Both the position numbers and the translations under genes were made by a program. A DNA stretch of 64,000 nucleotides, from NCBI GenBank assembly GCA_964016885.1, contig OZ024751.1, positions 50,344,001 to 50,408,000 of the forward strand, written 5' to 3'. Of this stretch, positions 18,476 to 18,922 are shown in pieces; within the stretch, counting starts at the first letter, position 1, and every line of letters starts with the position of its first letter. Origin of the DNA: Eledone cirrhosa. Taxonomy: Eukaryota. A model generated the notes under the pieces. That model searched no databases. It saw nothing but the letters and a program-made list of their open reading frames with translations, and was not told the DNA's origin.

Positions 18476-18623
18476 GGAGTGTAACTTGGAGTTACTGTAG
18501 GTTCACCCGGGTGAGCACTCGATGTTTAGGTTCACTTCAGTGTCGATGTGTAGATCTAGACAGAGTCTATTATAGTGAAATAAGATAACAAGGACGATTG
18601 GTTACTCCTTCATTATGTTTATT

Positions 18624-18715
18624 AGTTGCTGACGCGCGTTTCGCCACTGATCAGCTCAAGGTTCTATCTGTAACGATCTGACCCGACTCTGTAATCCGCG
18701 GCTCGTCAGACCACT
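18624..18715 (-). ncRNA. Hammerhead ribozyme, mirror copy
   Basis: AGTGGT-CTGACGA-GCCGC...GTGGC-GAAACGCGCGTC-AGCAACT; one stem I mismatch. Confidence 0.65.
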
Positions 18716-18742
18716 TGTAATGTTAATATTAACATTACAAGG

Positions 18743-18832
18743 GGTCTGACGAGCCACGGTCTGACGAGCCAAGTCGGGTCAGATCGATACAGATCGAACC
18801 TTGAACTGATCAGTGGCGAAACGCGCGTCACC
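18743..18832 (+). ncRNA. Minimal type I hammerhead ribozyme, predicted cleavage after GUC at 18829
   Basis: GGT-CTGACGA-GCCAC...GTGGC-GAAA-C-GCGC-G-TC-ACC; palindromic loop 3; long insert in stem II. Confidence 0.75.
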
Positions 18833-18922
18833 AATCAATAAACGTAATGAAGGAATAACCAATTGTCCTTGTTATGTTATTTCACTATATATATATAAAT
18901 AAATATGTGTGTGTGTGTGTGT

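What the first reader, a model, noticed from the sequence alone, without database searches (positions are those of the whole stretch)
18571..18889. Family B palindrome: head-to-head hammerheads with an insert of about 55 nt in stem II
Seen: both arms keep the full core (CUGACGA, GCCRC/GUGGC, GAAAC-GCGC-GUC) followed by AATAAA, and the centre has no spacer. The arms have diverged, and the right one has GGTCTGACGAGCCA twice, which argues against an assembly artefact. A long stem II with a minimal stem III is unusual (inference).
Basis: partly seen in the sequence, partly recalled or inferred. Interest (0 to 1): 0.7.

Follow-up and report, generated by a model that had tools for sequence, protein, structure and literature searches.

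The report
Inverted Penelope end with long-armed hammerheads
This palindrome is the tail end of a common jumping gene pasted in twice back-to-back, a known layout; its predicted self-cutting RNA has an unusually long arm, and a likely younger branch of the family spread after changing two normally fixed core letters.

Summary
The palindrome is real (centre 18727|18728, no spacer), with a type I hammerhead (HHR) on each strand pointing outwards. It is not a two-ribozyme device. It is an inverted pair of 5'-truncated pseudo-LTRs of a Penelope-like element (PLE) in (TA)n. One arm carries a 97-nt 'tail' into which a LINE later inserted. Longer copies lead to an RT + GIY-YIG ORF, and 60 such palindromes match a strict pattern genome-wide. 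This layout is published. A transcript across the locus is predicted to fold into one hairpin that buries the HHR; the left arm has lost helix I pairing. The stem II extension is family-wide: 50 nt (55 nt only in the right arm), a 60-nt hairpin with compensatory changes at its base. It exceeds the 11-25 nt seen in 24 related loci and the published descriptor. Unexpectedly, a derived sister lineage (769 exact hits, against 260 canonical) has the core CCGUCGA yet keeps the arm, consistent with cleavage being dispensable. Cleavage is untested. The scan noted a similar long-stem-II palindrome in another genome (e1-9590685). Verdict: known structure, modestly new HHR variant.

The parts
17139..17176 (.). 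(AT)n microsatellite, left flank of the original PLE insertion
17177..17186 (-). Outer end of the PLE tail, displaced by the LINE; holds the first copy (17179-17186) of the 8-bp target-site duplication AGGGAGTG
   Evidence: intact ends read (AT)n-CCAGGGAGTG in L006, L013, L014, L020
17187..18473 (+). Broken, 5'-truncated LINE inserted later into the tail; ends in short (TGAGTC)-type repeats (RTE-like by recall)
   Evidence: RVT_1 E=5.8e-13 for 17501-17881; sequence
18474..18570 (-). PLE 'tail' (97 nt), on the left arm only; second TSD copy at 18474-18481; in full-length elements this stretch leads to the ORF start
   Evidence: (L036, L038)
18571..18727 (-). Left arm: inverted 5'-truncated pLTR, 6 substitutions in 157 nt against the majority of 19 close copies
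18628..18712 (-). Left hammerhead: core 18709-18703, 60-nt helix II 18702-18643, GAAAC-GCGC-GUC 18642-18631, predicted cut after 18631; helix I broken by C>G at 18629
18714..18741 (.). Perfect 28-nt palindromic junction, centre 18727|18728, no spacer
18728..18889 (+). Right arm: 5'-truncated pLTR without tail, ending at CACTATA into (TA)n; 6 substitutions plus one replaced segment
18743..18832 (+). Right hammerhead: helix I GGU/ACC, core 18746-18752, helix II 18753-18817, GAAAC-GCGC-GUC 18818-18829, predicted cut after C18829
18760..18771 (+). Copy-specific replacement of 7 nt by 12 nt that duplicates the 5' half-core
   Evidence: 0 of 43 other fetched matches show it
18837..18842 (+). AATAAA 8 nt after the cut site (mirror at 18623-18618); nearly invariant across subfamilies; use as a poly(A) signal untested
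18886..19159 (.). (TA)n-rich microsatellite, right flank

Best explanation
The palindrome is two 5'-truncated end copies (pseudo-LTRs) of an endonuclease-bearing Penelope-like retrotransposon, joined back-to-back in a (TA)n tract, likely in one insertion by cDNA fold-back or a template switch, and likely decaying neutrally since. Inferred steps: the element's GIY-YIG endonuclease nicks (TA)n; reverse transcription starts inside the RNA at one of two sites, giving one arm with the 97-nt tail and one without; synthesis stops just 5' of the hammerhead, and the second arm is joined in inverted orientation. The hammerhead is cargo of the pLTR. In the active element it is predicted to be a weak type I ribozyme that needs a dimer (self-complementary ACGCGCGU) or the element's protein; its 60-nt helix II is an old, structurally kept extension. 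At this locus it is predicted not to cleave, because any read-through RNA would form a full hairpin. Cleavage is probably dispensable for the family, since a derived lineage with a CCGUCGA core kept amplifying.
For: Dispersed family: 2811 first-look candidates. Longer copies run upstream into a GIY-YIG-type endonuclease frame (L002, L016). L038 has direct pLTR-ORF-pLTR; L036 has an inverted pLTR, a truncated pLTR and an 861-aa RT-EN frame. An inverted partner lies within 700 nt in 10 of 30 canonical and 10 of 30 variant copies; 60 palindromic loci by strict pattern. Two end classes: 33 of 60 end without tail at (TA)n, 19 of 60 with tail then (AT)n. Published layout: inverted truncated copy, tail, (TA)n targets (PMC8557442), head-to-head junction palindromes read as self-priming (PMC3846280), internal RT starts that define the tail (PMC11167929). 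The arms have 6 and 6 unshared substitutions, 4 at CpG. The whole palindrome folds at -233/-235 kcal/mol with P(helix II base pair) 0.0. HHR mutants do not impair insertion of an anole PLE in vitro.
Against: Pfam hmmscan names no RT or GIY-YIG domain in the ORF or in 20 aligned homologues; domain calls rest on motifs read from the alignment and recalled. The full-length ORF copies examined belong to the sister CCGUCGA subfamily (83% alike); for the canonical subfamily only 3' ORF parts were seen (L002/L021, L016). No target-site duplication can be read in (TA)n. No contig spanned the junction. The fold-back step is the literature's inference, not shown. Arm-to-arm divergence did not separate the variant from the canonical subfamily in age (0.041 vs 0.048, p=0.28).
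Confidence: 0.9

Rival explanations
1. The paired hammerheads were co-opted as a functional bidirectional device (for example cutting sense and antisense transcripts, or a hairpin source of small RNAs).
For: Both cores and both AATAAA are intact; the locus would form a roughly 155-bp hairpin if transcribed.
Against: Arms carry 12 unshared, partly CpG-type changes and a broken helix I; a LINE interrupts the tail; at least 60 like loci exist. Intact cores are expected at about 4% divergence.
Confidence: 0.04
2. It is a non-autonomous foldback/MITE-like unit that moves as a whole palindrome, or an animal retrozyme.
For: Terminal inverted symmetry, small size, TA flanks; retrozymes derive from PLE pLTRs (bioRxiv 2026.07.22.740005, title and passages).
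Against: Two thirds of copies have no near inverted partner, and the junctions differ from locus to locus; no head-to-tail array of this unit here; copies are nested 5' truncations of an ORF-bearing element.
Confidence: 0.04
3. The palindrome is an assembly or library fold-back artefact.
For: Zero-spacer junction; no public contig listed spans it.
Against: Arms differ at 12 sites plus an indel; they end at two different family-typical ends; the LINE with its 8-bp TSD sits in only one arm's tail.
Confidence: 0.02

Closest known systems
Inverted 5'-truncated pLTR structures of EN+ Penelope-like elements (Arkhipova et al. 2013, PMC3846280; Craig et al. 2021, PMC8557442 Fig. 2 legend; passages read)
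   Same: Head-to-head inverted pLTRs with a palindromic junction, a tail on one end only, (TA)n targets, partial tandems, HHR in the pLTR, and a Cys-rich linker before the endonuclease.
   Different: Tail is about 97 nt here against 30-40 bp published; this copy has no ORF left; clade (Nematis vs Neptune) not tested by a tree.
Minimal type I hammerheads of metazoan PLEs (Cervera and De la Pena 2014, PMC4209133; parts 1-2 of 4 and supplement passages read)
   Same: Type I topology, short helix I (2-3 bp), G10.1-C11.1, palindromic helix III suited to dimers (ACGCGCGU duplex -13.3 kcal/mol), AU-rich 3' flank.
   Different: Helix II is a 60-nt irregular hairpin; their descriptor allows at most 7 bp plus a 10-nt loop. 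No extra base between A9 and G10.1. Sister subfamilies carry U4C and U4C+A6U cores; in the parts read they report only a U3-A8 core variant.
PAc (Poseidon, Anolis carolinensis) HHR (PMC11167929; section 3 part 2 and passages read)
   Same: HHR at the pLTR-ORF junction, AT-rich targets, two internal ends that define the tail.
   Different: PAc's ORF starts in stem II; here the ORF begins about 190 nt after the cut site. PAc cleavage was measured (protein-assisted, not needed for insertion); none was measured here.

Membership tests
EN+ Penelope-like element | Single ORF with RT and C-terminal GIY-YIG endonuclease linked to the repeat | tested here: met
   861-aa frame after the pLTR in L036; 3' EN frame upstream of canonical-core copies L002 and L016. 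Motifs DKT, GLYRDD, YIG and C/H residues align with 19 homologues; motif names recalled; Pfam hmmscan gave no domain name. Absent from the window copy itself.
EN+ Penelope-like element | Direct pLTRs flanking the ORF | tested here: met
   L038: two copies 4.8 kb apart on one strand around the ORF
EN+ Penelope-like element | Adjacent inverted 5'-truncated copy | tested here: met
   window; 10 of 30 and 10 of 30 copies; 60 loci
EN+ Penelope-like element | Optional tail at one end | tested here: met
   97 nt on the left arm only; 20 of 60 copies with tail, 40 without; longer than the published 30-40 bp
EN+ Penelope-like element | Insertion in AT-rich or (TA)n targets | tested here: met
   52 of 60 copies end at (TA)n/(AT)n; both flanks here
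EN+ Penelope-like element | Retained spliceosomal intron in the pLTR/5' UTR (optional) | tested here: inconclusive
   Pyrimidine tract and AG just 5' of helix I, with donor-like sites 400-580 nt upstream in 6 of 8 listed copies; no RNA data
Nematis or Neptune clade | Cys-rich Zn-finger-like linker between RT and EN | tested here: met
   CNC-x5-CPL-x3-C in the ORF and homologues; clades defined so in PMC8557442
Nematis or Neptune clade | RT phylogeny with reference elements | not testable with these tools
   No labelled reference PLE set on hand; Nematis-like is my recall from the linker pattern
Type I hammerhead ribozyme | Core CUGANGA, GAAA, UH | tested here: met
   Both arms; not met in the sister subfamilies CCGANGA (389 hits) and CCGUCGA (769 hits)
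Type I hammerhead ribozyme | Helix I closing the motif | tested here: inconclusive
   3 bp in the right arm, broken in the left; 91.7% of cells paired over 48 copies, one change on both sides
Type I hammerhead ribozyme | Helix II with G10.1-C11.1, supported by covariation | tested here: met
   88.5% of cells paired in 22 pairs; changes on both sides at columns 26-81 (4 rows) and 28-79 (13 rows); the distal part shows almost only one-sided changes
Type I hammerhead ribozyme | Helix III, short and palindromic in PLE HHRs | tested here: met
   AC-GCGC-GU; self-duplex of 8 bp. Fixed by my search patterns, so its conservation is judged only from the copies found through the protein
Type I hammerhead ribozyme | Self-cleavage after C17 | not testable with these tools
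   No assay; monomer HHR fold lies 6.5-12.3 kcal/mol above the minimum in 7 constructs
Non-LTR retrozyme | Head-to-tail tandem monomers, each with one HHR | tested here: not met
   Arms are inverted; no direct repeat of this unit in 17000-21000

The most novel reading that the evidence does not exclude
PLE hammerheads in this animal lineage form an overlooked long-helix-II class (two unrelated families, over 12,000 pattern hits) in which the extended arm is a docking site for the element's own protein, so that even the CCGUCGA core, with two changes in the supposedly fixed CUGA turn, still cleaves with protein or dimer help.
Probability: 0.12. Interest if true: 0.65.

Novelty: new variant of a known kind. 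Interest (0 to 1): 0.3.

Why it matters
The palindrome itself matters little: it is a textbook PLE integration scar. The family matters more, because the role of PLE hammerheads is an open question (processing, passenger, or protein-binding structure). Here one lineage offers a natural series: older and middle subfamilies with CUGA, a U4C branch, and a derived branch with U4C+A6U that has the most exact pattern hits, all keeping the same 60-nt arm. If the derived core is dead, that is genomic evidence that PLEs transpose without cleavage while keeping the fold, matching an in vitro result. If it is alive, it is a new natural core. Either answer needs only a simple cleavage assay. The long arm also shows that standard descriptors miss many animal hammerheads.

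Tried and rejected
Rfam scan: no hit at gathering score. Expression: no RNA holder listed. Contigs of three runs (one sample, kind not on record) covered both arms but no listed piece spanned the stretch; no conclusion drawn. Pfam on the ORF and 20 aligned proteins gave no useful family; PDB sequence search had no hit below E 0.25. First metagenome scan with the single ORF found nothing; the alignment scan worked. Idea that the insert is a conserved anti-core switch (GUCAGAUC pairing with GGUCUGAC): it appears in the window arms' minimum folds but those insert positions vary among subfamilies without consistent compensation; not supported. Age ranking by arm-to-arm identity was not significant for variant vs canonical (n=9 vs 11, the 11 including two CUGU copies of variant background). 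The arm-versus-majority lists were out of register and were redone; the L012 fold was misplaced by 3 nt and redone; the label 'L006 can' is L012. No PLE protein hit beside six loci of the neighbouring family. Lunse et al. 2016/2017 on PLE HHR dimers is not held and was not read. Retrozyme, MITE and artefact readings rejected as above.

Full report
Observation. The inverted repeat is real: arms 18571-18727 and 18728-18889, perfectly complementary for 14 bp on each side of 18727|18728 with no spacer. Each arm, read outwards from the centre, has GGU-CUGACGA-GCCRC...GUGGC-GAAAC-GCGC-GUC, then AATAAA. The 17-nt anchor occurs exactly twice in the window, against a shuffled mean of 0.03. The stretch between the 5-bp strands of helix II is 55 nt in the right arm but 50 nt in the left. 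The right arm has 7 nt replaced by 12 nt at 18760-18771, which doubles the 5' half-core; 0 of 43 other fetched matches show this. Against the majority of 19 close copies the arms have 6 and 6 substitutions, none shared, 4 at CpG; C>G at 18629 breaks helix I of the left arm. Rfam reports nothing.

What it belongs to. The right arm has 2811 first-look candidates in the 3-Gb genome, 40 of them scored. Copies are nested 5' truncations. Longer ones (L002, L016) run upstream through a long untranslated stretch into a frame with CNC-x5-CPL-x3-C, a YIG motif and terminal C/H residues. Searching with that piece gave copies with long frames: L036 holds an inverted pLTR, a truncated direct pLTR and an 861-aa RT-endonuclease frame; L038 holds two direct pLTRs 4.8 kb apart around the ORF. 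Of 28 homologues at E<=1e-20, two carry a source name, both from Argonauta hians, which hints at a mollusc host (inference). RT and endonuclease motifs align across 20 proteins, but Pfam names no domain, so the motif names are recalled. A Cys linker before the endonuclease marks Neptune and Nematis (PMC8557442 passages); Nematis-like is my recall and was not tested by a tree.

Anatomy of this insertion. The left arm continues for 97 nt (18474-18570) as the stretch that in full-length copies leads to the ORF start. This is the PLE tail. Among 60 pattern-anchored copies, 33 end without tail at (TA)n, 19 with tail then (AT)n, and 8 otherwise. A broken LINE (17187-18473; RVT_1) later inserted at the tail's end with an 8-bp duplication, pushing the last 10 nt to 17177-17186 beside (AT)n. 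The original insertion therefore had (TA)n on both sides. An inverted partner within 700 nt was found for 10 of 30 canonical and 10 of 30 variant copies (one variant locus was picked because I had seen it was paired, and L050/L051 are two ends of one insertion). A strict two-ended pattern matches 60 loci, this one included.

Comparison with print. Craig et al. describe inverted 5'-truncated copies, a 30-40 bp tail on one end and (TA)n targets (PMC8557442 passages). Arkhipova et al. describe head-to-head inverted pLTRs with junction palindromes and read them as self-priming (PMC3846280 passages; lead from earlier finding e1-9590685). PMC11167929 (passages and section 3 part 2) shows internal RT starts defining the tail, protein-assisted HHR cleavage, and no loss of insertion in HHR mutants. 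Cervera and De la Pena (PMC4209133, parts 1-2 of 4) report PLE HHRs with palindromic helix III, weak dimer cleavage, and pairs 100-700 bp apart on opposite strands. The palindrome is therefore already known in kind.

Does the ribozyme work here? Probably not (inference from folding). The two motifs lie on opposite strands, so one RNA holds one hammerhead and its complement. The 319-nt RNA folds at -233 or -235 kcal/mol with the core fully paired. As monomers, the hammerhead fold is 6.5-12.3 kcal/mol above the minimum in all 7 constructs, as expected for a motif that needs a dimer; the helix III 8-mer self-pairs at -13.3 kcal/mol.

The long helix II. It is family-wide. The 60 nt fold alone as one irregular hairpin in 7 of 8 copies tested (z -1.7 to -5.4; the eighth -0.4). 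On 48 copies from three subfamily groups, 88.5% of helix II cells pair, with changes on both sides at columns 26-81 and 28-79. The whole structure has 8 such pairs against a shuffled 3.5 (1 of 500), but the count of further pair types is unremarkable (210 of 500), slid controls also reach 4-8 such pairs, and the distal part shows almost only one-sided changes. Related rows share events, so this is moderate support for the base of the helix and weak support for its tip. Fourteen of the 48 rows were hand-picked older copies. In 78 related metagenome loci my scan found an HHR in 24, with helix II of 11-25 nt and none longer (many contigs are short). The published descriptor caps helix II at 7 bp plus a 10-nt loop (supplement passages of PMC4209133; file 1 was not searchable). 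Searches listed no paper on such an arm in PLEs, but Lunse et al. was not held and the supplements of PMC8557442 were not read. The arm is not rare in this genome: the unrelated family at 19153-20385 has a roughly 50-nt arm with visibly covarying base strands in 10,951 pattern hits.

Core decay in the lineage. All sister copies found through the protein with an intact 5' end show CCGUCGA or single changes of it. Exact pattern counts: CCGUCGA 769, CUGACGA 260, CCGANGA 389, CUGUNGA 45 (nearly all on the variant background, so probably CpG decay). The patterns differ slightly in strictness, and counts favour young copies. A tree of 82 copies built without the seven core bases is ladder-like: the CCGU copies are nested inside CUGA copies behind branches of support 99/92 and 100/95, pass through several further supported steps, and have short tips (0-0.06 in the top 17) against 0.015-0.09 for the canonical star and 0.07-0.4 for the oldest group (few columns, midpoint root, bootstrap not fully settled). 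Insert divergence from the group majority agrees (0.049, 0.076, 0.111), but arm-to-arm identity does not separate variant from canonical. In a type III hammerhead, all single and double mutants of the CUGA turn except the C3-G8 swap had low activity (PMC9901934 passages); U4C lowers activity yet is tolerated by a viroid (PMC3088659 passages). The simplest reading (about 65%) is that the family kept moving with a crippled ribozyme while keeping its fold; residual or assisted cleavage is the alternative. One search listed no paper on this.

Verdict. The finding is an inverted pLTR pair of a PLE (0.9), an integration by-product. The new elements are the 60-nt helix II and the lineage's drift away from the canonical core, both untested at the bench. 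Interest 0.3.

Noticed in passing
window 19153-19494 (-), 19558-19917 (-), 19924-20385 (+); motif at 20134-20204 (+) and 19739-19809 (-): A second, unrelated repeat family in partial-tandem plus inverted layout carries a type I hammerhead-like motif: CUGAUGA-C, a roughly 50-nt helix II arm (z -3.1), extra A, GAAAC-UAAUUA-GUU. 10,951 exact pattern hits; the base strands covary by eye among subfamilies; many are tandem at about 560 nt. No PLE protein within six fetched loci.
   Followed up: partly
G000, e.g. L046-L055, L086-L105: Derived subfamily of the same PLE with the non-canonical core CCGUCGA (769 exact hits); an older branch has CCGANGA (389 hits).
   Followed up: yes
window 17187-18473: Broken LINE with an 8-bp target-site duplication inserted into the PLE tail, so it is younger than the palindrome.
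   Followed up: yes
window 18728-18745 and L002, L016, L025, L034, L038, L039: Pyrimidine tract and AG just 5' of helix I, with donor-like GTAAG 400-580 nt upstream: a possible retained intron ending at helix I, as reported for D. virilis Penelope.
   Followed up: partly
L041:7462-9538; L044:9001-9254: Other small hammerheads with short helix II: a 466-nt tandem array plus an inverted copy in L041, and an inverted pair in L044.
   Followed up: no
L036:6883-9900: A second, different PLE-like ORF of over 1000 aa with an asparagine-rich insert lies directly downstream of the full-length element.
   Followed up: no
L036:3014-5596 and relatives: The family's ORF has a low-complexity insert of about 100 aa before the conserved thumb-side motif and another before the Cys linker, absent from most homologues.
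   Followed up: no
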